From Candidatus Uhrbacteria bacterium (lineage in GTDB: Bacteria > Patescibacteriota > Patescibacteriia > UBA9934 > GWF2-40-263), in NCBI GenBank assembly GCA_023246355.1, contig JAHFIQ010000001.1, positions 222,234 to 286,233 on the forward strand: DNA of 64,000 nucleotides, given 5' to 3'. How positions within the stretch are numbered: position 1 is the stretch's first letter; the number at the start of each line of letters is the position of its first letter. Under the pieces are notes generated by a model. That model was not told the origin of the DNA. It ran no database searches and worked only from the letters and a program-made list of their open reading frames with translations. Below, piece by piece: positions 3,652 through 49,178 of the stretch. A program made the translations under genes and the position numbers.

Positions 3652-3738
3652 TGTCTCTCCAGCCACAGGTACCAGTTCCTCCTCGACTGAGTAAACAGTC
3701 GATTTGGTTCTCCCTATGGACGGTTGTCCTACACGGTG

Positions 3739-3826
3739 CCGCCGTGCCGGTGTGAGTGCAAAACCGACGGTTTTCGGCTCTGCAAACGACTGGAGACTAT
3801 ACTCCCGTTTGGCGGAAAAGTCAAGG
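3739..3826 (-). promoter_or_regulatory. conserved promoter plus 5' leader element, copy A
   Basis: Minus strand reads TTGACT-17nt-TATAGT (-35 at 3819..3824, -10 at 3796..3801). The ~75-nt transcribed leader is about 85% identical to copy B at 16354..16442. Confidence 0.6.
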
Positions 3827-3846
3827 AATTGGTATGTTTGTGTGGT

Positions 3847-3984
3847 ATGTCAATAAAAAACGAGTATCCTGAAGGAGTTTACAGACCTATATTCGTCCAG
3901 CGTATGCGAGAGGCGCTCGACGATAAACCGATCTACTCTTACACAGACCCTGGCTCGCTCCTCAAACAGCTCGAAAAACTATGA
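3847..3984 (+). CDS. small hypothetical ORF (45 aa), possibly an orphan antitoxin-like protein
   Basis: ATG at 3847; its stop overlaps the rpe start (ATGA). No recognisable motif. Confidence 0.25.
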   Translation: MSIKNEYPEGVYRPIFVQRMREALDDKPIYSYTDPGSLLKQLEKL

Positions 3985-4673
3985 TCGAAATCGTGCCGGC
4001 CTTTTTGGCCGAATCAGAACGTGAGTTTGAGCGCAACCTTCGGCTGGTCGAGAACGACTGCCAGCTCATCCAGGTCGACGTGCTCGACGGCTCGTTGTTT
4101 CCCAACACCTGCTGGTTCGACGCGGAGCGAATCGGCAACCTCAAGACCAACGTCGAAATGGAACTTCACCTCATGGTCGAGAATCCCATTCCCATCATCG
4201 AGGCGTGGAAAAAATATGTGCCAACCTTCAAACGCGCCATTGTTTCCGCGGAGATGCATCGACCAACAGGCGCGGTCACGGGCTTCATCAAAGACGAACT
4301 CAAACTCGAAGTTGGCGTGGCGCTGAGTCCTGAGTCGCCCCTCAAAGAAATCGAAGAAGTGCTCCACCAAGTTGATGCGCTCACCATCATGAGTGTGCAT
4401 CCAGGTCGCCAAGGTCAAACCTTTGGCGATCCTGAGCACGGGGGAAACCTCCCGTTCATCTTGGAAAAAATCGCCCAAGCTCGGGCGCATCGACCTGATC
4501 TCATGATCGAAGTAGACGGAGGCGTGACAGCTGAACTCATCCCGGCTCTGATAAAAGCTGGTGCCAATCGTCTGTGTGTTGGTGGCGCGATCTTCAAATC
4601 AACTGACCCAGCTGGTACACTGAAGGAAATGAACCAATACCTTTATGAACTTTTGCAAAACAGCGCAGGCTAA
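3981..4673 (+). CDS. rpe: ribulose-phosphate 3-epimerase
   Basis: LHLMVENP and MIEVDGGV motifs; 230 aa. The last three codons and the stop are supplied by a REP element. Confidence 0.85.
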   Translation: MIEIVPAFLAESEREFERNLRLVENDCQLIQVDVLDGSLFPNTCWFDAERIGNLKTNVEMELHLMVENPIPIIEAWKKYVPTFKRAIVSAEMHRPTGAVTGFIKDELKLEVGVALSPESPLKEIEEVLHQVDALTIMSVHPGRQGQTFGDPEHGGNLPFILEKIAQARAHRPDLMIEVDGGVTAELIPALIKAGANRLCVGGAIFKSTDPAGTLKEMNQYLYELLQNSAG

Positions 4674-5457
4674 AGCCTGCGGCTACCTCACAATCTTTAC
4701 CCTGCTCGCCATCCTTGCCCTACCTGTTCACGCCGCCACCGTCTCCGCTGACGACCTCACGCCTGGCGATCTGATCCGTGGGGAATCTTTTTCCGCTGTC
4801 TACTACTATGCAGAAGATGGGCTGCGCTACGTTTTCCCAAATAGCAAAGTCTACTTCACGTGGTACGAGGACTTCGACGATGTGAGCTGGCTTTCCGATG
4901 AAGATCTCGCCACCATAGAAATCGGCGGCAACGTCACCTACAAACCAGGCATCAAGATGGTCAAGATCAACTCCAGTCCCCAGGTCTATGCGGTTGGAGC
5001 TGGTGGTATCTTGCGCGGCATTGCATCTGAAAACGTTGCACAAGAACTCTACGGCGAGGATTGGAACCAGAATATTGATGACATCCCTGATGGATTTTTT
5101 GGCAACTATGAAATTGGAGAGGACATCGAACTTTCAACCCAGTACGATCCAGATGTTGAAGAGCAAGACGCTCAAGACATCGATGACGATCGCGACATCA
5201 AACCGTTTGTGGAGATCACGGTCACAGAGGAAGGCTACAGCGAACCAACCGTGACTATCGACTCAGGAACAGCCGTCCGATGGACGAATGAGGGAGAAGA
5301 AAACCACACCGTGACGGAATGGGATAGCGTCTGGGGATCTGGAACGCTGAAGCCCGGTCACCACTTCACCCACTATTTCCGGGAAGAAGGCACCTGGCAC
5401 TACTATTCAAAAACCGACGATCGCAACATCTTTGAAGGTGCTGTGATTGTGGAATAA
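4645..5457 (+). CDS. secreted protein with degenerate cupredoxin-like C-terminal domain (paralog A)
   Basis: Signal peptide. About 60% identical to 5533..6348, but the copper-site residues are replaced (WHYYSKTDD versus FHCKYHSSM). Confidence 0.6.
   Translation: MNFCKTAQAKACGYLTIFTLLAILALPVHAATVSADDLTPGDLIRGESFSAVYYYAEDGLRYVFPNSKVYFTWYEDFDDVSWLSDEDLATIEIGGNVTYKPGIKMVKINSSPQVYAVGAGGILRGIASENVAQELYGEDWNQNIDDIPDGFFGNYEIGEDIELSTQYDPDVEEQDAQDIDDDRDIKPFVEITVTEEGYSEPTVTIDSGTAVRWTNEGEENHTVTEWDSVWGSGTLKPGHHFTHYFREEGTWHYYSKTDDRNIFEGAVIVE
4663..4687 (+). repeat. REP element copy 1 (GCGCAGGCTAAAGCCTGCGGCTACC)
   Basis: Palindromic core GCAGGCT.AAGCCTGC with a GTAG/CTAC end. The same 25-mer recurs at 12876, 13404, 13442 and 48977. 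Confidence 0.8.
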
Positions 5458-5532: not shown

Positions 5533-6348
5533 ATGACAAAACGCCTTTCCTTTTTGTCAGTCTCGCTGCTCGCCATAGCCATGGTTTCAAGCGTTGTTCT
5601 CTCCGGGCTCGTTCCAACCGCTGGCGCCACCAGCCTCACAGATCCAGAAGATCTGGAGCCAGGTGACCTTATCCGTGGAGAAACATTTTCTGCTGTCTAC
5701 TATTACGGTGAAGATGGTTTCCGCTATGTGTTCCCCAACAGCAAAACCTACTTCACTTGGTATGAAGACTTCGACGACGTGGTTTGGTTGTCTGACTCGG
5801 ACATGTCCACGATCCAAATCGGCGGCAACGTCACCTACAAGCCAGGAGTAAAAATGATCAAAATCAACTCTGACCCAACCGTCTACGTGGTAGGCATGGG
5901 CGGAGAAATCCAAGGCATTCCATCGGAGGAAGTAGCTGAAGCGCTCTACGGTTCTACCTGGAACCAACAAATTGACGATGTCCCAGATGGATTCTTTAGC
6001 AACTACACCATGGGCTCGGATCTGGAATTCGCCTCGCAGTTTGATCCAGATGCAGAAGAAGCTGAGGCCGACTCCATCAACGATGACAAAGCTCTTCAAC
6101 CCTACGTCACCATCACCATCACGGACAACGAATACAGCGACGAGAACCTCACGGTCGAAGCGGGAACCGCCGTGCGCTTCGTGAATGAAGGAAGCAGCAA
6201 CCACACGGCAAGTGCAGACGACGGCTCCTGGGGAACCGGAACCCTCGCCAGTGGCAAGAACTTCTCGCGTTACTTTGACGAGGAAGGCGACTATGACTTC
6301 CACTGTAAGTATCATTCAAGCATGACGGGAACGATCACTGTTGAGTAA
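5533..6348 (+). CDS. secreted cupredoxin (plastocyanin/azurin-like) domain protein (paralog B)
   Basis: C-terminal YDFHCKYHSSMTG fits the type 1 copper site pattern H..C..H....M, with an upstream His at NHTA; signal peptide. Confidence 0.65.
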   Translation: MTKRLSFLSVSLLAIAMVSSVVLSGLVPTAGATSLTDPEDLEPGDLIRGETFSAVYYYGEDGFRYVFPNSKTYFTWYEDFDDVVWLSDSDMSTIQIGGNVTYKPGVKMIKINSDPTVYVVGMGGEIQGIPSEEVAEALYGSTWNQQIDDVPDGFFSNYTMGSDLEFASQFDPDAEEAEADSINDDKALQPYVTITITDNEYSDENLTVEAGTAVRFVNEGSSNHTASADDGSWGTGTLASGKNFSRYFDEEGDYDFHCKYHSSMTGTITVE

Positions 6349-11689: not shown

Positions 11690-12816
11690 TGAGATCGAAA
11701 ACCCAATCAGGCATCAACCGCGAGGCGTGGCTTGCCCGCGATCTGTTTGATGAAAAAAAGCTTAGGCAGACTCCCACCCGCAACGGCTTTGGCGAGGGTT
11801 TGGTTGAAGCTGGACGAGTCAACAAAAATATCGTTGTCCTGTGTGCAGACCTCACCGAATCCACACGCGTTCTTCCCTTCAAGGAAGCCTATCCAGATCG
11901 TTTCGTTCAACTCGGGGTGAGTGAACAATCCATGCCTTCGATCGCGGCCGGCATGGCCATGGCTGGGAAAATTCCGTTCATTGCCAGCTATGCGTGCTTT
12001 TCTCCAGGTCGCAACTGGGAACAAATTCGCACCACGGTCGCACTCAACAACATGAACGTCAAAATTGCCGGCGCGCATGCGGGCGTCTCGGTCGGTCCCG
12101 ACGGCGCCACCCATCAGATGATCGAGGACCTTGCCATCATGCGAGTGCTGCCAAATATGAACGTCGTCGTCCCATGCGATACGATCGAAACACGAAAAGC
12201 AACAGAGACGATCGCGAAACTTGTCGGGCCATGCTATTTACGTTTTGCTCGAGAAAAATCGCCGGTGTTCACCACGATAAAGACGCCATTCAAAATTGGG
12301 CGTGCGGAAACATATCGATTCGGTCAGGACGTCACGATCATTGGAGCGGGGCCTCTTTTGTACGAAGCCCTCTTGGCAGCCGAAAGACTCTCCAAAGACT
12401 TTGGGATCGAATGCCGTGTTGTGAACATGCATACGATCAAGCCCTTGGATGTAAAGACGATCGTGAAGGCTGCGAAAGAAACTGGCGCGATTGTCACGGT
12501 TGAAGAAGCTCAGGCTGCTGGTGGACTTGCTGGCGCTGTGGCTGAAACCATTTCTCTGACAACACCTGTGCCCATGGAACGCATTGGTGTGCAAGATCGT
12601 TTTGGTGAATCTGGTACACCGCGCGAAGTCCAAGAAGGACTTGGCCTTACGGCCGAATTCATCGCTCTTGCCGTTGATCGTGTGCTTCGGCGCAAACATG
12701 GACAGCGTGTGCCGGATGTTCCCGCTCATGTCCTAGCCGCCCAAGAAAAACTCGTCAAAATGCAAAAGGCTGTTATGGACGCGGCGCTCAAAAAAGTCCC
12801 GAGGAAGTGGAAATAA
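11690..12816 (+). CDS. tkt: transketolase, C-terminal subunit (split tkt)
   Basis: Pyrimidine-binding and C-terminal domains (GVSEQSMPSIAAGMA, HAGVSVGPDGATHQ). The N-terminal 60 aa of the track ORF are a spurious extension. Confidence 0.85.
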
Positions 12817-12821
12817 CAAAA

Positions 12822-12848
12822 AAGAGCCTCCCCGGCTCTTTTTTGTTA
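12822..12848 (+). terminator. rho-independent terminator
   Basis: AGAGCC-tccc-CGGCTCT followed by TTTTTTGTT. Confidence 0.6.
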
Positions 12849-12875
12849 TACTGTAGTTGGCTTGAAGATCTTGGG

Positions 12876-12900
12876 GGTAGCCGCAGGCTTCAGCCTGCGC
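12876..12900 (-). repeat. REP element copy 2 (inverted orientation)
   Basis: GGTAGCCGCAGGCTTCAGCCTGCGC. Confidence 0.8.
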
Positions 12901-12925
12901 CCTGCTAAGCTGGTGCTGTTGAGAT

Positions 12926-13402
12926 ATGCTTCCAATCGAACGACCACATCGACTGGAACGTGACGATTACGAAGGTTTTCTCTGTTGTACATTCACTTGT
13001 TGCATTGAAAATAGGAAAAACTTTTTTGTCACACCGGAGATCTTTTCAATCTTCGAATCAAAGCTGCGACACGTTCTTGAAAAGAATCATTGTGGTGCTC
13101 ATGTTTATCTGTTCATGCCAGACCACCTTCATATTTTAGCAGAAGGAAAATCAGAAGAAGCGGATCTCTGGAAAATGATCGTCGACTTTAAGCAGCAAAC
13201 TGGATATTGGCTCTCAAAAAATGGAAATGGAATTCGATGGCAAAAAGATTTTTATGATCACATCCTTCGAGAGGAGGAGGATGTGACAAAGCACATGGCC
13301 TATATTCTCGATAACCCCATCCGTGCTGGTCTTGCGCGAGATTGGAGGGACTACCTGTACAAAGGATCGACACTCTATAATCTTCATGAACTCGAAATCT
13401 AG
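12926..13402 (+). CDS. REP-associated tyrosine transposase (RAYT, IS200/IS605-like Y1 HUH transposase)
   Basis: HLHIL (HuH) and YILDNPIRAGLA motifs; flanked by REPs in opposite orientations. Confidence 0.8.
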   Translation: MLPIERPHRLERDDYEGFLCCTFTCCIENRKNFFVTPEIFSIFESKLRHVLEKNHCGAHVYLFMPDHLHILAEGKSEEADLWKMIVDFKQQTGYWLSKNGNGIRWQKDFYDHILREEEDVTKHMAYILDNPIRAGLARDWRDYLYKGSTLYNLHELEI

Positions 13403-13403
13403 G

Positions 13404-13428
13404 GCGCAGGCTAAAGCCTGCGGCTACC
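13404..13428 (+). repeat. REP element copy 3
   Basis: GCGCAGGCTAAAGCCTGCGGCTACC. Confidence 0.8.
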
Positions 13429-13441
13429 GTCAAAAACCTAC

Positions 13442-13466
13442 GCGTAGGCTAAAGCCTGCGGCTACA
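13442..13466 (+). repeat. REP element copy 4
   Basis: GCGTAGGCTAAAGCCTGCGGCTAC. Confidence 0.75.
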
Positions 13467-13472
13467 ACTTCT

Positions 13473-14444
13473 ATGTACGATTTGATTACCATCGGCGATA
13501 TCAAACTGGACACCTTTGTGGTCTTGGATGGCAATGGCCAGCAATGCTCTTTAAAGATGCCTGAGGCAAAACTGTGTTTAGATTATGGAGCGAAGATCGA
13601 TGTCCAGGTGGTAGATTCTCAAATCGCTGGTTCTGCCCCAAACGTCGCTGTGGGTCTCAGCCGCATGAAGAAAAAAACCGCTGTACTTTCCGTGATGGGA
13701 GAAGACACCACGCGACCTCTGGCGATGGAAATGCTTGCACGAGAACAGGTCGACACGTCTCTGATTGAAATCGCCAAGGGTGAAAAAAGTACGTTCTCCG
13801 TGGTCTTGAACTACGCCGGCGAAAAAACGATTCTCACCGGCCACATCAAACACGAATACCATCTCCCCAAATCTTTTCCTAAACCCGAGTGGCTCTACGT
13901 GGGCGAGATGGGTGAAGGATACGAAAAAATCTACAAGCAAGTCATTGCGTACGCTAAAGACGACGGTGTACACATCGTGATGAATCCAGGATCGATCCAA
14001 GTGGAAGAACACAAACCCGCACTCTTTGAACTGCTCAAGTATCTCGAAGTCTTATTTATCAACCGCGAAGAAGCTCAAATCATTTCTGGTTCCAAATCGC
14101 TCGAGATTCACAAACTCGCAGGCGCCCTCTACAAATTTGGTCCCAAGCACGTGATCATCACCGATGGCCCACACGGGTCGTATGAATACGGTGGCCATGA
14201 GTTGAGATTTTGTCCGATCTTCCCTGGGAAACTCGTGGAGGCCACGGGCGCTGGCGACGCCTTTGCCTCGGGATACCTGGGCGCCGTCCTACACGGTGAA
14301 TCCTGCTCTGAAGGTCTGCGCTGGGGCTCGGTGAACTCCGCATCCGTGGTCGGACACGTAGGGCCGACCAAGGGACTGCTCAGCGCCACGGAAATTCGCA
14401 CACGTCTCAAAAAGAAATCTGGCTTCAGAGTAAAAACCGTTTAA
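13473..14444 (+). CDS. PfkB-family carbohydrate kinase (ribokinase-like)
   Basis: TGAGDAFASG motif and ribokinase fold pattern; start at MYDLITIGD. Confidence 0.75.
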   Translation: MYDLITIGDIKLDTFVVLDGNGQQCSLKMPEAKLCLDYGAKIDVQVVDSQIAGSAPNVAVGLSRMKKKTAVLSVMGEDTTRPLAMEMLAREQVDTSLIEIAKGEKSTFSVVLNYAGEKTILTGHIKHEYHLPKSFPKPEWLYVGEMGEGYEKIYKQVIAYAKDDGVHIVMNPGSIQVEEHKPALFELLKYLEVLFINREEAQIISGSKSLEIHKLAGALYKFGPKHVIITDGPHGSYEYGGHELRFCPIFPGKLVEATGAGDAFASGYLGAVLHGESCSEGLRWGSVNSASVVGHVGPTKGLLSATEIRTRLKKKSGFRVKTV

Positions 14445-16275: not shown

Positions 16276-16353
16276 TTGAAACTCCGTAAGTCGGTATCCT
16301 CACAAGAGCCTAAGCCCTCTGTTTGGTACGCCGACGGACAGATGCGCACAGTT

Positions 16354-16442
16354 CCGCCGTGCCGGTGTGTGTGTGCAAAACCGGAGGATTCCGGCTCTGC
16401 AAACGACTGGAGACTATACTCCTGTTTGGCGGAAAAGTCAAG
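16354..16442 (-). promoter_or_regulatory. conserved promoter plus 5' leader element, copy B
   Basis: TTGACT(16436..16441)-17nt-TATAGT(16413..16418); the leader is about 85% identical to copy A. Confidence 0.6.
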
Positions 16443-16462
16443 AGTTGATATAGTATTCGTAT

Positions 16463-26171: not shown

Positions 26172-26286
26172 TTGTCCTGGCGCCTACCTACTCTCGCGCA
26201 ATCGCACTACCATTGGCCCAAGAGAGCTTAACGGCCGTGTTCGAGATGGGAACGGGTGTGGCCTCTCAAGGAAGTGGCACCAAGAC
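26172..26286 (-). rRNA. rrf: 5S rRNA
   Basis: Reverse complement contains ..CCCGTTCCCATCTCGAACACGG..GCGAGAGTAGGTAGGCGCCAGG. Confidence 0.8.
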
Positions 26287-26623
26287 AAAGGAGTCTTTCT
26301 TTTTTTGTAGAAGAGATATTTCTCGCTTGAGACGAATCAAACGTAGAAATGGTTGTAGAGCTCGACCTATTAGTACTGCTCCGCTGAACGTCTTACGACG
26401 CTTACACGTACAGCCTATCAACCTCATAGTCTCTGAGGGGTCTCAAATGAAAACTAATCTTGGGAACGGCTTCGCACTTAGATGCTTTCAGCGCTTATCC
26501 GTACCGAACGTAGCTACCCGGCATTGCCCTTGGCAGGACAACCGGTACACGAGAGGTTCGTTCATTCCGGTCCTCTCGTACTAGGAATGAATTCCCTCAA
26601 TTTTCGATGCCCACGGCAGATAG

Positions 26624-26656
<33 letters not shown>

Positions 26657-26665
26657 ACTCACGTA

Positions 26666-26697
<32 letters not shown>

Positions 26698-27283
26698 AAC
26701 CTTCTCCAGCTCCAGGATGCGATGAGTCGACATCGAGGTGCCGAACCTCCCCGTCGCTGTGGACGCTTGGGGGAGACTAGCCTGTTATCCCCGGAGTAGC
26801 TTTTATCCGATGAGCTTCCGCCGTCCTATTTCGTACGGTCGGATCACTAACTTCTGCTTTCGCAACTGCTCGACTGGTCGGTCTCGCAGTAAAGCTGGCT
26901 TCTGGGTTTGCCCTTAGAGCGCGATTTCCATCCGCGCCAAGCCAACCTTTGTAAACGCCTCCGTTACATTTTAGGAGGCACCCGCCCCAGGTAAACTACC
27001 CACCAGATCCTGTCCCTGACTCCGGTTTCACGGAGTCTGGTTAGAATGCACACGACACAAGGGTGGTATCTCACTGGTGCCCGAAGGCTCCCACCTATTC
27101 TCAACATGTGATGCATGAACCCAAGATCAAGTTATAGTAAAGCTTCACGGGGTCTTTTCGTCTAGCCGCGGGTAGTGAGCATCTTCACTCACATTGCAAT
27201 TTCGCCGAGTCCATCGTTGAGAGAGTTCTCAACTTGTTATGCCATTCGTGCAGGACGGAACTTACCCGTCAAGGAATTTCGCT

Positions 27284-28002
27284 CGGGTCTGTTACACTCC
27301 CATTCATGGGAGGAGGTGATCATTTCTGTCACCTTCTGCATGTCACCATGCAGGTCGGACTATATCATCGTCTGTTAAGACGTTTGGCGTGTAGTCTCTG
27401 AGGATTCTAGAAATCGTGATGGAACCTTTCGGTTCATACTTTGAATAATGCGAGCAGCATCTTGAAGACCTTCAATTGTTTGATGTCGTCTGTTTTCCAT
27501 TAACTGTAAAACGGCGACAAACTTTTCGAAGTCTTCTTGTTTTGCTGTTCGTAATGGATGTTGAATGAAGAATGGGATGATCTTCAAACGAAGATCCCTC
27601 GTTGACCTCACACAATATCTCAGCAACGATTCGCGGTGATTGTCTGACCTTCGATTAAGATAGATCGATCCACACTGAAAGTGATCATGGATCAACTTCA
27701 GTGCCTCTCGACTCTTCTCACCTTGGGTTACGACAAACTCTGGGAACAATTGCCAGCCAAAGCTAGTGGTTGAATTACGGATCATGCTGACTGAGAAGCA
27801 ACCCTCTCCGTCGACAAATCCTACAATCCACCCAACGATATCTAGTCTTTCCTGCTGATTGTCTGGTCTATTAATCGCCATACTATGGCCGAATAATACC
27901 ATAGACCAGGTGTTCCAGCATATAGCCAAATTTTCTCTCTACATCTCCGCGGCAAACGAAGTTCAAGAGGAGGACATTCACCTCACTAAGGCAGTGTTAT
28001 TC
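27284..28002 (-). mobile_element. group I intron in 23S rRNA (inserted after ..GTCCTAAGGT, E. coli position about 1917) carrying a homing endonuclease gene
   Basis: The exon sequence is continuous when 27284..28002 is removed (GTCCTAAGGT | AGCGAAATTCCTTG). The intron ends in G and the upstream exon ends in U. Confidence 0.75.
27375..27929 (-). CDS. LAGLIDADG homing endonuclease
   Basis: IVGFVDGEGCF motif; lies wholly within the intron. Confidence 0.8.
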   Translation of the reverse strand: MAICWNTWSMVLFGHSMAINRPDNQQERLDIVGWIVGFVDGEGCFSVSMIRNSTTSFGWQLFPEFVVTQGEKSREALKLIHDHFQCGSIYLNRRSDNHRESLLRYCVRSTRDLRLKIIPFFIQHPLRTAKQEDFEKFVAVLQLMENRRHQTIEGLQDAARIIQSMNRKVPSRFLESSETTRQTS

Positions 28003-28856
28003 ACCTTAGGACGATTATAGTTATCGCCGGCGTTCATCCGCGCTTCAGTCGAAGGCTGCCGCCCTTGCGGGCTTGACCCCCTTCCTTAACGTTCGGACAC
28101 TGGCCAGGCATCAGCCCCTATACATCACCTTACGGTTTAGCAGGGACCTGTGTTTTTGGTAAACAGTCAGTTGAGATCTTTCGCTGCGGGTCGCATCCTC
28201 CCGGATGCAACCAGGCCTTATCCCGAAGTTACGGCCACTGTTTTGCCTAGTTCCTAAACGATGGTTCTCTCGTACGCCTTGGCACATTCACGTGCCCATC
28301 TACCTGTGTCGGTTTCCGGTACGGGTCTCTCTCACATAATCTTAGCAGCTTTTCTTGGCGCCCTGTCCTTTCCCCTTGTCAGTCCGATTGGACCAACTTG
28401 CGATTGTCTCCGTGCTCGAGATTGAACTCAGCTTGGCGGACTTCCCTACCAAGCGCCTAGAAACACCCAACGCTATAGCCATAGAGCGCGGGAAATTTCA
28501 GAACGCGTCCCTGCGTCAGTGTGAAAGAGAGTGCAGGAATAATAACCTGCTGTGCATCGACTACGCCTTTCGGCCTCGCCTTAGCTCCCGACTAACCCTG
28601 GGTCGATTCGCGTTGCCCAGGAAACCTTAGATTTACGGCGGACGGGATTCTCACCCGTCTTTTTGCTACTCATGCCAACATTCTCTCTTCGCATCGCTCC
28701 ACCCGTGGTCACCCACGAGCTTCAGTGCTGATACGAATGCTCCCCTACCGCGCCCTTCACTAACGTGAAGGACACCCTCAACTTCGGCACGTCATTTAGC
28801 CCCGGTACATTTTCGGCGCAAGAAAGCTTGACCAGTGAGCTGTTACGCTATCTTTA

Positions 28857-28894
<38 letters not shown>

Positions 28895-29511
28895 AGCCTT
28901 CTCACCACCTTTTACACTTAATGACGATTTAGGGGCCTTAGTTTGAGATCTGGGCTGTTGCCCTTTCGACCAATGGAGCTTCGCCCCCATGGTCTGACTG
29001 CCGGGAACACATAATGGTATTCGGAGTTTGGTTAGGCTCGCTAGCCGAAGCCGCTAAGCCCATTCAGTGCTCTACCCCCATTATGTTATTTACCGACGCT
29101 AGTCCAAAAACTATCTCGGGGAGAACCAGCTATTACCGAGTTCGATTGGAATTTCTCCGCTATCCACGCGTCATCCCCGACTTTTGCACAGGTCGTGGGT
29201 TCGGGCCTCCACGGGTTGTTACACCCGCTTCACCCTGCGCATGGATAGGTCACCCGGTTTCGGGTCGTGTGCGCGTCACACTCTATCTTTCTACTCGACC
29301 CCGCTTACCAAACTTGGCAGCGATTGAATCGAGTAGAGAGAAAGATCACGCGGGTTAACGCTCGCTTTCACTACGCCTTCGTCCCGGAGGACTTAAGCAA
29401 GCGACGCACAGCACACTCGTTGGCTCATTCTTCAATAGGAATGCCATCACCCCTTGCGAGGCTCTGACTCCTTGTAAGCATACGGTTTCAGATACTATTT
29501 CATTCCCCTCT

Positions 29512-29544
<33 letters not shown>

Positions 29545-30509
29545 GTTCACTATCGATCAGAACATGTATTTAGCCTTACCAGATAGTCCCGGCAGGTTCC
29601 TACAGGATTTCACGAGTCCCGTAGTACTCAAGGATGTCACTTATGATGGTGCGAATGAATTTCACATACAGGACTATCACCTTCTGTGGTTCTCTTTTCC
29701 AAGAGATTTTGTTATTCATCACACAGGTCCCATCACTCGTCTTTGAAAGAAGACGACCGTAACCCTTACAACCCCTACAACCACAACGGCTTCCACCTTT
29801 CGCCACCGTTTACATGTTGACTTGCGTCGCGATGCTCACCGTAACTTCATGATCGTAGGTTTGGGCTATTTCCTGTTCGCTCGCCGCTACTAAGGAAATG
29901 GATTCGCTTGCACGTTTCCACGCATCGAGAACTCGTGCGTAAAAATGTGAAACGAATAATACTTTTTCTTTTCCTCTGGGTACTGAGATGTTTCACTTCC
30001 CCAGGTTCCCTTCCTGCACCTATGTATTCAGTACAGGACCATGCGGCATTCCCCGCATGAGGTTTCCCTATTCGGAAATCTTCGGATCAAAGGTTGCTTG
30101 CCACCTCCCCGAAGCTTATCGCAGGCTGCTACGTCCTTCATCGGCACGTTCTGTCGAGCCATTCACCGTATGCCCTTATTAATGCTCTACAACCATTTCT
30201 AAATTCGATTTAGAGAATGGTGTATCTCTTCTACCCTATTGTTCAATTGTGAAAGGTCGTCTGGCCGATATGAGAGACGGCTCTATTCTTCGGTGCAGAT
30301 TTTGTCATCTGAACCCAAGGACACAAAAAACCGCGCAGGCGGTCTTCACCGTAACCAAAGTGTTTACGATAAGATCGCTCTGTCATCGTGAAACTTGTGT
30401 TACGTTTGTCATAGATGTGGTCTCCGTGAGCTCTCCCTCTCTTCAATCCCTCTGGATTCAGCCTCGGTTCAGGGGACAAAAGAGGAAGAACGTGTTTCAA
30501 ATTACTGGC

Positions 30510-36229: not shown

Positions 36230-36703
36230 ATGGAAAAAGAAATGACCCTCAATCAACTTGCCAACAAAATGGACCAACGCTTTGATGGGTTAGAGAAGCG
36301 ATTCGAAGGGATTGACCAACAGTTCGTTGGGATAGAGAAACGATTCGAAGGGATCGATCAACGGTTCGATGGGATGGATCAACGGTTCGATGGGATGGAG
36401 AAGCGGTTCGGTGAGATGGATCAACGGTTCGATGGGATGGAGAAGCGGTTCGGTGAGATGGATCAACAGTTCGTCGGAATAGAAAAGCGCCTTGGGAACG
36501 TGGAAAACAAAGTGGACGGCATTGCCACGGACTTGGAAGATTTAGCGATTATGACAAAGATGGGATTCGATGATCTGGGAGAAAAAGTCGACGCAAACAC
36601 TAAATCGATCTCTGTTCTCAGTCACCGAGTTGGGAAGCTACAAGACAAGTCCCTGGATCATGACGTGCGAATCAGACGACTTGAAAGAGCCCAACCAGCC
36701 TAA
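36230..36703 (+). CDS. coiled-coil repeat protein with about nine tandem 11-residue repeats (consensus KRFEGIDQRFDGMx)
   Basis: 33-nt nucleotide period between about 36290 and 36490. Confidence 0.6.
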   Translation: MEKEMTLNQLANKMDQRFDGLEKRFEGIDQQFVGIEKRFEGIDQRFDGMDQRFDGMEKRFGEMDQRFDGMEKRFGEMDQQFVGIEKRLGNVENKVDGIATDLEDLAIMTKMGFDDLGEKVDANTKSISVLSHRVGKLQDKSLDHDVRIRRLERAQPA

Positions 36704-47942: not shown

Positions 47943-49178
47943 ATGTTCGTCGTCTATCTCATCTTTACCGCAGCTTTTGCTCTGATCGCTTGGCGAGACC
48001 TTCAGCTCGGTCTGCTGCTCATGATCACCCTGCTGCCAAGCTATCTTCTGCGCACAGAAATTTTCGGTCTGCCAACAACTCTGCTGGAAATGCTGCTCGT
48101 CGCGTTTGTGACCATATGGTGCATAAGACGTCGCCCACATGTCTTTTCTTTTTTTGCTCTTCCCCGTTCACTTGCCCTCCCAATCTTCCTCCTTGTGCTT
48201 GCCTCCTTTATTTCTCTTTTCATTGCTCCTGATCTCGCCTCTGCACTGGGAATCTGGAAAGCCTACTTCCTAGAACCAATGCTTTTATTCTTCATCATCC
48301 GATTTGAACACATCGACGCATCTCGTATCTTCAAAGCTCTGGGCATCACCGCTCTCTTTCTCTCCCTTGTCGCCATCCTCCAGTGGCTCACAGGTCAGGG
48401 CATCCCAATCCCTTGGGATATTGAAGGCCGCGTGACAAGTGTGTTTGAGTATCCAAATGCCCTCGGGTTATTTTTAGGGCCGATTGTTATCATCGGCGCC
48501 CTGTCGTGGAGACAAGATAAAAAATTCTGGATCACGACGATCCTCCTCTCTGCGATTGCCATCGTCCTAGCACAATCTGAGGCCGCAGTCGTGGCTGTGC
48601 TTGCGACACTCGTGATCGCTGGACTTTCAAACAAACAAACGCGCAACAAAACGCTCCTTGCCGTGCTTACCGCGATCCTCTTGATCACTCTTTCACCCTG
48701 GCGCGGATTCGTGATGGAAAAACTCACGCTCCAAGACTATTCAGGCCAAGTGCGTCTGACTCAATGGAGTGAGACTGTGGAGATGCTGAAAGATCACTGG
48801 CTTTTCGGCGCTGGCCTCTCAGGATATCCAACCGTGTTTGAGCCTTATCACCAAGCCACCCATATTGAAATCTTTCAGTACCCGCACAACATCATCCTGA
48901 ATATCTGGGTAGAATTGGGACTGCTGGGAGTTATTGCATTCATACTTCTTGCGTACCAAGCCATACTCGAATTCTGGCGCAGGCTGAAGCCTGCGGCTAC
49001 CACCTCTTCCACCTTGGCCACCTTTGCATCCCTATTCGCCCTCCTGGAAATCACCATCCACGGTCTGGTCGACGTCCCGTACTTCAAAAACGACCTCGCG
49101 ATTCTGACGTGGATTTTGTTGGCCATTATTTTTTCAGACAAGGAAAAAAATAAAAGATCAACTCCCTATGAGACCTGA
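47943..49178 (+). CDS. O-antigen-ligase-like (Wzy_C) membrane protein with an in-frame REP insertion
   Basis: Polytopic membrane protein; REP copy 5 at 48977..49001 encodes ..RRLKPAAT.. Confidence 0.5.
   Translation: MFVVYLIFTAAFALIAWRDLQLGLLLMITLLPSYLLRTEIFGLPTTLLEMLLVAFVTIWCIRRRPHVFSFFALPRSLALPIFLLVLASFISLFIAPDLASALGIWKAYFLEPMLLFFIIRFEHIDASRIFKALGITALFLSLVAILQWLTGQGIPIPWDIEGRVTSVFEYPNALGLFLGPIVIIGALSWRQDKKFWITTILLSAIAIVLAQSEAAVVAVLATLVIAGLSNKQTRNKTLLAVLTAILLITLSPWRGFVMEKLTLQDYSGQVRLTQWSETVEMLKDHWLFGAGLSGYPTVFEPYHQATHIEIFQYPHNIILNIWVELGLLGVIAFILLAYQAILEFWRRLKPAATTSSTLATFASLFALLEITIHGLVDVPYFKNDLAILTWILLAIIFSDKEKNKRSTPYET
48977..49001 (+). repeat. REP element copy 5 (inside a CDS)
   Basis: GCGCAGGCTGAAGCCTGCGGCTACC. 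Confidence 0.75.

What the first reader, a model, noticed from the sequence alone, without database searches (positions are those of the whole stretch)
12876..13466. RAYT transposase flanked by inverted REPs, with REP copies invading coding sequence
A Y1 HUH transposase with the NPIRAGL motif is flanked by REPs in opposite orientation (12876..12900 versus 13404..13428 and 13442..13466). The same 25-mer recurs at 4663..4687, where it supplies the last three codons and stop of rpe and the N-terminal 14 codons of the downstream secreted protein. It recurs again at 48977..49001, in-frame inside the Wzy-like membrane protein (..RRLKPAAT..). REPs tolerated within ORFs are unusual.
Basis: partly seen in the sequence, partly recalled or inferred. 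Interest (0 to 1): 0.5.

Follow-up and report, generated by a model that had tools for sequence, protein, structure and literature searches.

The report
REP transposase unit; REPs inside genes
A small candidate-phyla bacterium (Ca. Uhrbacteria) carries a single-copy REP-associated tyrosine transposase flanked by its 25-base hairpin repeats, and copies of that hairpin also sit in frame inside protein-coding genes; this is a known kind of element in a new host, and it shows how a mobile hairpin can be absorbed into signal peptides and membrane-protein loops.

Summary
Five copies of a 25-nt GTAG-tagged hairpin (GTAGCCGCAGGCTTYAGCCTGCGCY) occur in the window; none is expected by chance. ORF 12926-13402 is a RAYT: it passes the NCBIfam equivalog cut-off, and its H67-L68-H69 motif and Tyr126 align with E. 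coli TnpAREP. It is bracketed by REPs in inverted orientation, which makes a classical "REPtron".

Two other copies lie in coding sequence.
- **rpe junction (4662-4686).** The REP gives rpe its last three codons and its stop, and supplies codons 7-14 of the downstream secreted protein. A syntenic ortholog lacks it. At least five other Uhrbacteria species carry it at the same offset, and there it is more conserved than its flanks, with a compensatory stem change.
- **O-antigen-ligase-like gene (48976-49000).** The REP encodes WRRLKPAAT in a short, positively charged turn between two transmembrane helices. No clean indel can be shown in this species. Other species' orthologs carry confirmed REP DNA in the same loop and in other positively charged loops.

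The same REP flanks RAYTs of only 43-56% identity in metagenomes and occurs in more than 13 phyla.

Intragenic GTAG REPs are already published (Di Nocera 2013; Rickettsia RPEs). This is therefore a new member of a known kind, with some unreported features: a candidate-phyla host, recurrence in orthologs, and a near-invariant REP across phyla.

The parts
12877..12901 (+). REP copy 5' of the RAYT gene, 24 nt upstream of its ATG. The GTAG tail faces away from the gene and the loop is TTCA.
   Evidence: Exact 25-mer. It forms a 33-nt, 91% complementary inverted repeat with 13401-13433 (I1). The hairpin folds at -8.4 to -9.7 kcal/mol.
12926..13402 (+). RAYT (REP-associated tyrosine transposase, Y1 HUH), 158 aa. 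It carries H67-L68-H69 and Tyr126 in the motif AYILDNPIRAGL.
   Evidence: NCBIfam NF047646 equivalog, 94.7 bits against a cut-off of 80. Pfam PF01797, E = 1.6e-6. The only PDB match is E. coli TnpAREP 4ER8, with the HUH motif and Tyr115 aligned. It is the only copy in the window.
13403..13427 (-). REP copy 3' of the RAYT, starting one base after the stop codon. It is inverted relative to the 5' copy and its loop is TTTA.
13441..13465 (-). Second, degenerate REP 3' of the RAYT. It lies head-to-tail with the previous copy and its stem is broken by a G>A change.
   Evidence: 3 mismatches. The fold is weak: -4.6 kcal/mol, z = -0.6.
13473..14444 (+). PfkB-family sugar kinase (context only). The true start is at 13473, so the two 3' REPs are extragenic. 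The longer ORF from 13323 that reads through both REPs is an ORF-calling artefact.
   Evidence: The ortholog in L218 is 323 aa, the same length as the ORF from 13473. Gene callers on sister contigs extend the gene through the REPs.
4662..4686 (-). Dispersed REP at the junction of rpe and the secreted-protein gene, with a TTTA loop. It supplies Ser-Ala-Gly-stop to rpe and codons 7-14 (AQAKACGY) to the downstream gene.
   Evidence: Absent from the ortholog L129/L130. Present at the same offset in L127, L128 and L217, and at the same junction in L216 (as an inverted pair) and L218 (with an expanded loop).
3981..4673 (+). Ribulose-phosphate 3-epimerase gene (230 aa). Compared with the usual 224-aa form its C-terminus is extended, and it ends in the REP loop.
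   Evidence: PF00834 homologs. C-terminus comparison.
4645..5457 (+). Secreted cupredoxin-like protein (270 aa). The n-region of its signal peptide is partly REP-encoded. A tandem paralog lies at 5533-6348.
   Evidence: There is no ATG, GTG or TTG in frame between the REP and the hydrophobic core.
48976..49000 (-). Dispersed REP inside the O-antigen-ligase-like gene. It is identical (25/25; 29 nt at 97%) to the copy 5' of the RAYT and encodes (W)RRLKPAAT.
   Evidence: I4.
47943..49178 (+). O-antigen ligase / Wzy_C family membrane protein (411 aa) that hosts the REP at residues 345-353.
   Evidence: PF04932 homologs. Invariant motifs downstream of the REP stay in frame. In the AlphaFold model the REP residues lie at the end of helix 317-347 and in the coil 348-354.

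Best explanation
This is a REPtron in a Candidatus Uhrbacteria (Patescibacteria/CPR) chromosome: a single-copy RAYT gene bracketed by its cognate GTAG-tagged REP hairpins in inverted orientation.

**How it most likely works (inferred).** By analogy with E. coli TnpAREP, the RAYT binds the REP folded on single-stranded DNA. It reads the hairpin and the 5' GTAG tail, then cuts and rejoins the DNA through Tyr126 and the HUH-bound metal. That is how REP copies are thought to be seeded elsewhere in the genome.

**Why copies end up inside genes (inferred).** Genes in this genome abut or overlap, so there is little non-coding DNA in which a copy can survive. Copies persist where a short peptide insert does no harm.

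**Why these positions are permissive.** The REP is open in 4 of its 6 reading frames (shown directly by the sequence). On the strand opposite GTAG it encodes AQA(E/K)ACGY or RRLKPAAT, which are small and neutral to positively charged.
- At 4662-4686 the REP went into the first codons of a secreted protein whose start overlapped the end of rpe. It now forms the n-region of the signal peptide. Its loop triplet TAA has become the rpe stop.
- At 48976-49000 the REP forms the positively charged turn between two transmembrane helices of an O-antigen-ligase-like protein.

**Shown.** Element identity, anatomy, in-frame position, absence from one ortholog, recurrence in other species, and hairpin covariation.

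**Inferred.** RAYT activity, translation of the REP codons, the cytoplasmic location of the loop, and tolerance as the reason for retention.
For: **Identity of the element.** Five REP copies against 0 expected. The RAYT passes the NCBIfam equivalog cut-off. Its HUH motif and catalytic Tyr align with TnpAREP 4ER8. It is flanked by a 33-nt inverted repeat.

**The RAYT-REP pairing is general.** Of 80 metagenomic RAYT homologs (43-56% identity), 62 carry the same REP (up to 4 mismatches) next to the gene, and 46 carry it on both sides. Host G+C ranges from 32 to 64%.

**The hairpin is under selection.** Across 126 distinct copies, 98.1% of cells are paired. There are 72 double-change cells against 8.2 in shuffles (0 of 500 shuffles reach the observed value).

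**Insertion at the rpe junction.**
- The REP-less syntenic ortholog has the ATGA overlap.
- The start codon aligns in all species and there is no alternative start after the REP.
- Most rpe orthologs end ...FNxLIxxL at 224 aa. The window and P0127 end ...SAG at 230 aa, and P0129 ends ...SAGYMA at 233 aa.

**Recent copying.** The 48976 copy matches the RAYT 5' copy at 25/25, including the TTCA loop. The 4662 copy shares the TTTA loop of the 3' copies.

**Permissive positions.**
- Residues 346-355 have K+R = 3 and D+E = 0. They lie between two hydrophobic segments, on the side opposite the large catalytic loop.
- AlphaFold (pLDDT 81) gives helix, 7-residue coil, helix at this point.
- The loop varies in length among orthologs.

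**Recurrence.**
- Among the 120 listed Wzy_C homologs (the window's own protein P0001 is one), seven besides P0001 contain REP-encoded peptides in positively charged loops. P0015 and P0095 were confirmed at the DNA level.
- In L219 all three REPs found in 14 kb lie inside this gene. Two of them form a clean 27-aa insertion of an inverted REP pair.
- None was found inside the 120 rpe homologs.

**Tight gene packing.** rpe and the next gene overlap; the flippase and Wzy-like genes are 1 nt apart; the Wzy-like gene overlaps the next gene by 11 nt.
Against: - No experiment shows that this RAYT is active or that it moves REPs. Even for E. coli only in-vitro cleavage and rejoining is established.
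- A 25-nt unit cannot insert in frame on its own. The exact inserted unit and the accompanying indels are not resolved: the secreted protein is 270 aa against 263 aa in the REP-less ortholog, a difference of 21 nt.
- For the Wzy-like gene of this species there is no REP-less close relative that shows a clean gap. P0002 has 'RRL' at the same place without REP DNA.
- 'Mere tolerance' does not explain why the junction REP is better conserved (79-96%) than its flanking coding DNA (58-75% upstream; 23-73% downstream in an ungapped comparison) and keeps its stem through a compensatory change.
- The idea that intragenic location is enriched rests on 5 copies in one window plus loci that were chosen because they carry REP peptides. 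That sampling is biased.
- Topology was inferred from hydropathy and charge, not from a dedicated predictor.
Confidence: 0.8

Rival explanations
1. The intragenic REPs are not neutral passengers. They have been co-opted and are kept by selection. At the rpe junction the hairpin could act on the mRNA, setting rpe termination and translational coupling or mRNA stability for the downstream gene, or it could act as a RAYT-binding site. In membrane proteins the RRLKPAAT module could be recruited repeatedly as a cytoplasmic 'positive-inside' turn.
For: - The junction REP sits at the same offset (ATG+21) in the window, L127, L128 and L217. It is 79-96% identical between species, while the 60 nt of flanking coding DNA are 58-75% identical upstream and 23-73% downstream.
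- L128, L216 and L218 carry the paired change CGCAGGC/GCCTGCG to CCCAGGC/GCCTGGG, which keeps the stem.
- The rpe stop lies in the REP loop in every REP-bearing species examined (TAA or TGA).
- REP-coded peptides recur in three positively charged loops of Wzy_C orthologs, mostly in the RRLKPAAT frame.
Against: - High similarity between species could also come from repeated fresh insertion or RAYT-mediated homogenisation at a favoured site.
- The CCCAGGC variant is a REP subfamily that also occurs elsewhere, so it may reflect replacement rather than in-situ compensation.
- In L128 the GTAG has decayed to GGAG, which looks like relaxed constraint.
- REP-less orthologs (P0244, P0245, P0255 and others) show the hairpin is dispensable.
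- There are no expression data.
Confidence: 0.25
2. The 'REPs in ORFs' are annotation artefacts. The true genes start after the REP or end before it, or the host genes are pseudogenes, so the REPs are really extragenic.
For: - This is true for one case here. ORF 13323-14444, and the gene calls on sister contigs, read through both 3' REPs, but the PfkB gene really starts at 13473.
- Di Nocera 2013 warns that most N-terminal REPs are of this kind.
- Most long ORFs that span this REP in other phyla look like spurious antisense ORFs.
Against: - **Wzy-like gene.** The REP is at residues 345-353 of 411. The invariant C-terminal motifs (IHGLVDVPYFKNDL...) continue in the same frame, and the model folds as one protein.
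- **Secreted protein.** There is no ATG, GTG or TTG between the REP and the hydrophobic core in the window or L127, and only a too-late TTG in L128. The ATG aligns with the start codon of the REP-less ortholog.
- **rpe.** The only in-frame stop is the one in the REP loop.
Confidence: 0.07
3. The recurrence in the same genes reflects a target-site preference of the RAYT, that is insertion hot spots in the rpe junction and the polysaccharide locus, rather than selective filtering of random insertions.
For: - REPs occur in the same loop C in at least three lineages whose closest relatives lack them: the window (P0001), P0015, and P0069/P0095.
- All three REPs in the 14 kb of L219 lie in the Wzy_C gene.
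- An independent Patescibacteria hit (L076) lies 27 nt upstream of the neighbouring flippase gene.
- The secreted-protein N-terminus carries the REP in two different frames (AQAKACGY, and RRLKPAAT in P0308 and P0330), which suggests more than one event at that site.
Against: - The flanks of the five window copies share no motif beyond a G before GTAG.
- The loci were found through these very genes, so the sampling is biased.
- No target specificity is known for any RAYT.
Confidence: 0.2
4. The matches in coding sequence are chance or convergent similarity, not REP copies.
For: The closest Wzy ortholog has 'RRL' at the same position without REP DNA.
Against: - Matches of 25/25 and 23/25 nt, against an expectation of 0.00.
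- Identical DNA is found in the orthologs of other species.
- The hairpin and the GTAG tail are retained.
Confidence: 0.01

Closest known systems
E. coli TnpAREP (RAYT, PDB 4ER8) with its REP/BIME repeats
   Same: - A Y1 HUH transposase of about 160 aa, single copy.
- Flanked by REPs in inverted orientation.
- The REP is a G+C-rich hairpin with an unpaired 5' GTAG.
- The HUH motif and catalytic Tyr align.
   Different: - The sequence match is weak (30 bits).
- The REP here is a simple 7-8 bp stem with a TTYA loop, not the bulged E. coli REP.
- No BIME arrays in the window.
- The host is a CPR bacterium.
- Two of the five copies are in coding sequence.
Haemophilus influenzae and Thioalkalivibrio REPs with their RAYTs (Nunvar 2010, Table 1)
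   Same: Nearly the same REP architecture. H. influenzae has GTAGGGTGGGCTTyAGCCCACC; this element has GTAGCCGCAGGCTTyAGCCTGCGC. The GGCTTYAGCC centre is identical.
   Different: The outer stem bases differ. Relatedness of the RAYT proteins was not tested.
Intragenic GTAG/CGTC REPs (Di Nocera et al. 2013; for example Opitutus terrae and Thauera)
   Same: - GTAG-tagged REPs as singles or dimers inside ORFs, encoding about 8-30 residues.
- Some lie at N- or C-termini.
- The 'REPtron' organisation is the same.
   Different: - Their cases were noted mainly in DNA replication and repair genes of larger genomes.
- Here the hosts are a signal peptide and cytoplasmic loops of a membrane protein in a reduced CPR genome.
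- The same genes are hit in several species.
- This REP sequence does not occur in their text or in the supplements held.
Rickettsia palindromic elements (RPEs)
   Same: Palindromic repeats inserted in frame into functional genes of a small, compact genome, and tolerated in permissive protein regions (as cited in PMC3733652).
   Different: - Established knowledge: RPEs are longer, about 100-150 bp.
- Di Nocera et al. group RPE-4 and RPE-6 with the CGTC-type repeats, for which they found no dedicated transposase.
- RPEs are unrelated in sequence to this REP.
- Here the cognate RAYT sits beside its REPs.
REPIN-RAYT systems of Pseudomonas (Bertels and Rainey)
   Same: A single-copy RAYT with a cognate repeat population. 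Hairpin covariation is seen. Inverted REP doublets exist in relatives (L216, L219).
   Different: - The window has only singletons and one head-to-tail pair, no REPIN.
- In the RAYT hosts tabulated by Nunvar 2010 the REP sequence differs from host to host. This REP is almost invariant across more than 13 phyla, while its RAYTs are only 40-56% identical.

Membership tests
RAYT (REP-associated tyrosine transposase, IS200/IS605 superfamily) | HUH metal-binding motif | tested here: met
   H67-L68-H69 (PDHLHIL) aligns with EHMH of TnpAREP 4ER8.
RAYT (REP-associated tyrosine transposase, IS200/IS605 superfamily) | Catalytic tyrosine in the Y-x-x-x-NP-[IV]-[RK]-x-G motif | tested here: met
   Tyr126 in AYILDNPIRAGL aligns with Tyr115 (DYIYINPVKHG) of 4ER8.
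RAYT (REP-associated tyrosine transposase, IS200/IS605 superfamily) | Scores above the curated family threshold | tested here: met
   NF047646 equivalog, 94.7 bits against a cut-off of 80, covering 135 of 146 model positions. PF01797, 28.7 bits against 23.
RAYT (REP-associated tyrosine transposase, IS200/IS605 superfamily) | [quoted passage not shown] | tested here: met
   12877-12901 (+) and 13403-13427 (-), a 33-nt inverted repeat 91% complementary. The same arrangement is seen in 46 of 80 homolog loci.
RAYT (REP-associated tyrosine transposase, IS200/IS605 superfamily) | Single copy per genome (unlike IS200/IS605) | tested here: inconclusive
   There is one copy in the 64-kb window. The rest of the genome was not available.
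RAYT (REP-associated tyrosine transposase, IS200/IS605 superfamily) | Binds and cleaves its REP as single-stranded DNA | not testable with these tools
   This needs biochemistry.
RAYT sequence groups 1-5 (Bertels 2017) | Clusters with a named group | not tested
   Reference sequences were not at hand. The only data point is weak similarity to the Group 2 E. coli protein.
GTAG-type REP (Di Nocera superfamily) | Unpaired 5' GTAG tag | tested here: met
   Present in 5 of 5 window copies. Each GTAG column is at least 90% conserved across 126 distinct copies.
GTAG-type REP (Di Nocera superfamily) | Short G+C-rich stem (6-13 bp) with a short loop, maintained by covariation | tested here: met
   7-8 bp stem with a TTYA (TY) loop. 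98.1% of cells paired, and 5 of 8 pairs show compensatory changes.
GTAG-type REP (Di Nocera superfamily) | Many dispersed copies in the genome | tested here: inconclusive
   Five copies in 64 kb, two of them away from the RAYT. A genome-wide count was not possible.
GTAG-type REP (Di Nocera superfamily) | Extragenic location (the 'E' in REP) | tested here: not met
   Two of the five copies overlap three coding sequences. This is a known exception within the family, not a reason to exclude it.
REPIN (inverted REP doublet) | Two REPs in inverted orientation a short distance apart, forming one long hairpin | tested here: not met
   In the window, the copies away from the RAYT are singletons, and 13403/13441 lie head-to-tail. 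Inverted doublets do occur in relatives: L216 726/777 and L219 10226/10279.
Autonomous IS200/IS605 insertion sequence | Multiple identical copies with distinct left and right subterminal hairpins, often with tnpB | tested here: not met
   One copy, identical REPs on both sides, and no tnpB next to it.
Rickettsia palindromic elements | RPE consensus sequences of about 100-150 bp | tested here: not met
   The element is 25 nt. No longer shared unit surrounds the copies. The resemblance is in behaviour only.

The most novel reading that the evidence does not exclude
In CPR bacteria this REP may have become a reusable building block, not just a tolerated insert.
- One ancient copy at the rpe junction would be kept by selection as an mRNA or DNA hairpin that also donates the rpe stop codon and the signal-peptide n-region of the next gene.
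- The RRLKPAAT reading would be recruited again and again as a 'positive-inside' cytoplasmic turn in membrane proteins.
- The near-invariance of the 24-nt REP across more than 13 phyla, despite RAYTs only 40-56% identical, would point to a frozen protein-DNA recognition code.
Probability: 0.2. Interest if true: 0.65.

Novelty: new member of a known kind. Interest (0 to 1): 0.42.

Why it matters
- **Host range.** It extends RAYT/REP systems to the Candidate Phyla Radiation. No paper in the searched library links the two.
- **Comparative series.** It gives a clean set of species showing a REP absorbed into coding sequence: an empty site, an occupied site, an inverted dimer, an expanded loop and a decaying copy.
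- **Parallel with Rickettsia.** As with Rickettsia RPEs, it suggests that palindromic elements in very compact genomes persist mainly where proteins can absorb a short charged peptide.
- **Annotation.** The REP misleads gene callers (the PfkB start). REP-derived peptides such as RRLKPAAT, AQAKACGY and VAAGFSLR will recur in unrelated proteins and can create spurious similarity.
- **Recognition specificity.** One REP sequence paired with diverged RAYTs across many phyla is a convenient system for studying how a RAYT recognises its hairpin.

Tried and rejected
- **Chance similarity.** Rejected: 0 expected, 25/25 identity.
- **Further decayed copies in the window.** None at up to 6 mismatches, and none with the short core.
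- **Clean-indel test in the Wzy-like gene.** Comparison with the closest syntenic orthologs L121 and L125 was inconclusive, because the loop is variable and no longer than in P0002.
- **REPs in the near relatives.** L121, L124, L125, L129 and L130 carry no canonical REP (L218 has only the expanded-loop junction copy), and none of these loci, nor L218, has a RAYT. No polymorphic strain was available.
- **Rfam.** No RNA family matches the REP region.
- **Literature search for the REP sequence.** No hit in papers, in the Di Nocera supplements or in the Nunvar text.
- **Intragenic REPs in other phyla.** Of 172 copies, 8 are spanned by ORFs of at least 250 codons. On reading them, most are implausible antisense ORFs and only L062 looks like a real N-terminus. 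I did not pursue this further.
- **My GTAG-hairpin regex.** It returned nothing because of a greedy-match bug, so I dropped it in favour of fuzzy consensus searches.
- **Strand bias relative to replication.** GC skew is negative on the + strand throughout the window and the rRNA genes are on the - strand. The GTAG strand of 4 of 5 copies therefore lies on the probable leading-strand sequence, which is the same as the lagging-strand template. Five copies are too few to conclude anything.
Full report
**1. The observation**

A mismatch-tolerant search for GTAGCCGCAGGCTTCAGCCTGCGCC finds five copies in the 64-kb window:

| Position | Strand | Mismatches |
|---|---|---|
| 12877-12901 | + | 0 |
| 13403-13427 | - | 1 |
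| 13441-13465 | - | 3 |
| 4662-4686 | - | 2 |
| 48976-49000 | - | 0 |

The mean in 100 dinucleotide-preserving shuffles is 0.00. Allowing six mismatches adds nothing. Each copy folds as a 7-bp stem CGCAGGC/GCCTGCG with a TTYA loop and an unpaired 5' GTAGC tail. The 13441 copy has a broken stem.

**2. The transposase**

ORF 12926-13402 (158 aa) scores 94.7 bits against the NCBIfam equivalog model 'REP-associated tyrosine transposase' (cut-off 80). It also hits Pfam Y1_Tnp. Its only match among solved structures is E. coli TnpAREP (4ER8). In that alignment H67-L68-H69 lines up with the HUH motif, and Tyr126 (AYILDNPIRAGL) lines up with the catalytic Tyr115.

The gene lies between a (+) REP 24 nt upstream of its ATG and a (-) REP that begins one base after its stop. 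Together these form a 33-nt inverted repeat that is 91% complementary. A second, degenerate (-) copy follows 38 nt (start to start) further on. There is no second RAYT in the window. This is the canonical 'REPtron' anatomy of Nunvar 2010 and Di Nocera 2013.

**3. The host**

Close homologs of the neighbouring genes (66-87% identity) are named Candidatus Uhrbacteria or Patescibacteria by NCBI. The window's own proteins are on record from 6-8 contigs each, up to 414 kb long, across NCBI, ENA and Logan.

**4. The copy at the rpe junction**

*What the sequence shows.* rpe (3981-4673) ends AGC GCA GGC TAA. All four codons are inside the REP and the stop is in its loop. The next gene (4645-5457, a secreted cupredoxin-like protein with a tandem paralog at 5533-6348) reads MNFCKT-AQAKACGY-LTIFTLLAILALPVHA|ATV. 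The REP therefore supplies codons 7-14.

*It is an insertion.* The syntenic ortholog in L129/L130 (84% identical protein) has no REP. There, the rpe TGA overlaps the next gene's ATG (ATGA), the protein begins MKPSLNIVAF..., and the DNA alignment shows a gap of about 22 nt exactly where the REP sits. Most rpe orthologs end ...FNxLIxxL at 224 aa. The window and P0127 end ...SAG at 230 aa, and P0129 ends ...SAGYMA at 233 aa.

*Other species carry it too*:
- L127, L128 and L217 carry it at the same offset (21 nt after the ATG).
- L216 carries an inverted pair of REPs inside the N-terminal coding region.
- L218 carries a copy with an expanded loop.

*The REP codons are most likely translated.* In none of these species is there a usable start codon between the REP and the hydrophobic core. 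The ATG also aligns with that of the REP-less ortholog. The REP codons are therefore most likely translated as the n-region of a signal peptide. This is an inference; no proteomic data exist.

*Conservation.* Between species the REP block is 79-96% identical, while the 60 nt of coding DNA are 58-75% identical upstream and 23-73% downstream (ungapped comparison). L128, L216 and L218 carry the paired change CGCAGGC/GCCTGCG to CCCAGGC/GCCTGGG, which keeps the stem.

**5. The copy in the O-antigen-ligase-like gene**

*Position in the protein.* ORF 47943-49178 (PF04932) reads ...LLAYQAILEFW-RRLKPAAT-TSSTL... through a REP that is 25/25 identical to the copy 5' of the RAYT (29 nt at 97%). That identity points to a recent copy. 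Invariant family motifs downstream (IHGLVDVPYFKNDL) stay in frame.

*Nature of the segment.*
- It has three K/R and no D/E.
- It lies between two hydrophobic stretches, on the side opposite the large acidic catalytic loop.
- An AlphaFold model (pLDDT 81, pTM 0.84) puts it at the end of helix 317-347 and in the coil 348-354, before helix 355-376.
- I infer that it is a cytoplasmic turn.

*The ortholog test was inconclusive for this species.* The loop varies in length among orthologs. The closest ortholog (P0002, 71% identity, syntenic) has an equally long loop that starts RRL but is encoded by unrelated DNA.

*Other species give the evidence.* A scan of the 120 listed homologs (one of which, P0001, is the window's own protein) for REP-encoded peptides found seven more proteins that carry them:
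- in the same loop: P0015, P0069, P0095 and P0012;
- in two other positively charged loops: P0012, P0019, P0095 and P0100 at about residue 66-100, and P0049 at about residue 202.

P0015 (L220) and P0095 (L219) were confirmed as REP DNA. In L219 the only three REPs in 14 kb all lie inside this gene. Two of them form a clean 27-aa insertion relative to its nearest relatives. The closest relatives of each REP-bearing protein lack the REP, so there were several gains (or many losses). The 120 rpe homologs contain none internally.

**6. Why the REP can be read through**

The sequence itself shows that four of the six frames are open:

| Strand and frame | Reading |
|---|---|
| GTAG strand, frame 1 | VAAGFSLR |
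| GTAG strand, frame 2 | stop (TAG, from the GTAG tag) |
| GTAG strand, frame 3 | SRRLQPA |
| opposite strand, frame 1 | stop (TGA/TAA, from the loop) |
| opposite strand, frame 2 | AQA(E/K)ACGY |
| opposite strand, frame 3 | RRLKPAAT |

The window uses all three frames of the opposite strand: the stop for rpe, AQAKACGY for the signal peptide, and RRLKPAAT for the membrane protein.

Genes here are tightly packed. The rpe gene and the next gene overlap. The flippase and Wzy-like genes are 1 nt apart. The Wzy-like gene overlaps the following gene by 11 nt. My best explanation is therefore selective filtering: RAYT-dispersed copies survive where a short neutral-to-basic peptide does no harm.

**7. 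The family beyond this genome**

- The exact 24-mer occurs in MAGs from more than 13 phyla: Desulfobacterota, Planctomycetota, Verrucomicrobiota, Nitrospirota, Chloroflexota, Acidobacteriota, Omnitrophota, Bacteroidota, Armatimonadota, Spirochaetota, Proteobacteria, Patescibacteria and others.
- Three of those loci include a RAYT that is 40-48% identical to the one in the window.
- A metagenome scan with the RAYT returned 80 homologs at 43-56% identity. Of these, 62 have this REP (up to 4 mismatches) next to the gene and 46 have it on both sides, in hosts of 32-64% G+C.
- Across 126 distinct copies the stem is 98.1% paired, with 72 double-change cells against 8.2 in shuffles (0 of 500), and GTAG is at least 90% conserved.
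- In the non-CPR loci, almost all copies are extragenic.

**8. Comparison with what is known**

- RAYTs flanked by inverted REPs, GTAG tags, TY-type loops and stem covariation are textbook features (Nunvar 2010; Di Nocera 2013; Bertels 2017).
- The H. influenzae REP (GTAGGGTGGGCTTyAGCCCACC) has almost the same design.
- Intragenic REPs, including terminal ones and the warning about mis-called N-termini, are described in Di Nocera 2013. Rickettsia RPEs are the classic in-frame case.
- I could not find the following reported: a RAYT/REP system in Patescibacteria; this REP sequence; recurrence of REP inserts in the same orthologous membrane protein and signal peptide across species; or such a uniform REP across phyla.

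**9. Verdict**

It belongs to a known kind of system, and REPs inside coding sequence are not new in themselves. The open points are:
- whether the junction REP is conserved by selection or refreshed by the RAYT;
- whether recurrence reflects tolerance or a target preference;
- the true genome-wide distribution.

None of these could be settled with the loci available.

Noticed in passing
window 26349-30194 (-): The 23S rRNA match spans 3846 nt against a 2925-nt model. The gene therefore carries about 900 nt of inserted sequence (an intron or intervening sequence, as is often reported for CPR rRNA genes). The 5S rRNA lies at 26175-26284 (-).
   Followed up: no
window 3732-3827 and 16347-16444 (+): A roughly 100-nt element is present twice at 92% identity. 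One copy lies just upstream of rpe; the other lies upstream of a RelE-like ORF and a second PfkB-type kinase. It folds into a multi-stem structure with one compensatory pair and matches no Rfam family. It may be an undescribed cis-regulatory RNA of sugar-phosphate genes.
   Followed up: partly
window 36269-36499 (+): A tandem array of 21-nt units (eight overlapping 84-nt copies reported) that encodes heptad peptide repeats (MDQRFDG / MEKRFGE).
   Followed up: no
window 13323-13472; L131 2461-3519: The longest ORF, and the gene calls on sister contigs, start the PfkB kinase inside the 3' end of the RAYT and read through both REPs. The ortholog length (323 aa in L218) puts the real start at 13473. 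This is an example of REPs misleading gene callers.
   Followed up: yes
window 12816-13473 compared with L129 14741-16089 and L218 14862-19437: In relatives, the transketolase C-terminal gene is followed by other genes (PolyA_pol and others) before PfkB and the aldolase. In the window, TktC, RAYT, PfkB and aldolase are adjacent. The RAYT therefore sits at a rearrangement or deletion junction.
   Followed up: partly
The RAYTs found beside it are only 40-56% identical to the one in the window.
   Followed up: partly
L062 5652-5710: In a Gemmataceae MAG, an inverted REP pair lies in the N-terminal region (…VAAGFSLR…RRLKPAAT…LSAGC) of a lipoprotein-like, HlyD-type ORF. This may be another REP-derived signal-peptide n-region, outside the CPR.
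   Followed up: no
L076 880-903: The one Patescibacteria hit of the genome scan has the REP 27 nt upstream of the Polysacc_synt flippase gene. In the window, that gene immediately precedes the REP-bearing Wzy-like gene.
   Followed up: no
L218 10019-10072: At the rpe junction of this relative, the REP loop is expanded by about 30 nt that contains its own small palindrome (CCCGCC...GGCGGG). It reads TQAPAVAEALAGREAWGY in the protein. This looks like a nested insertion or loop growth.
   Followed up: no
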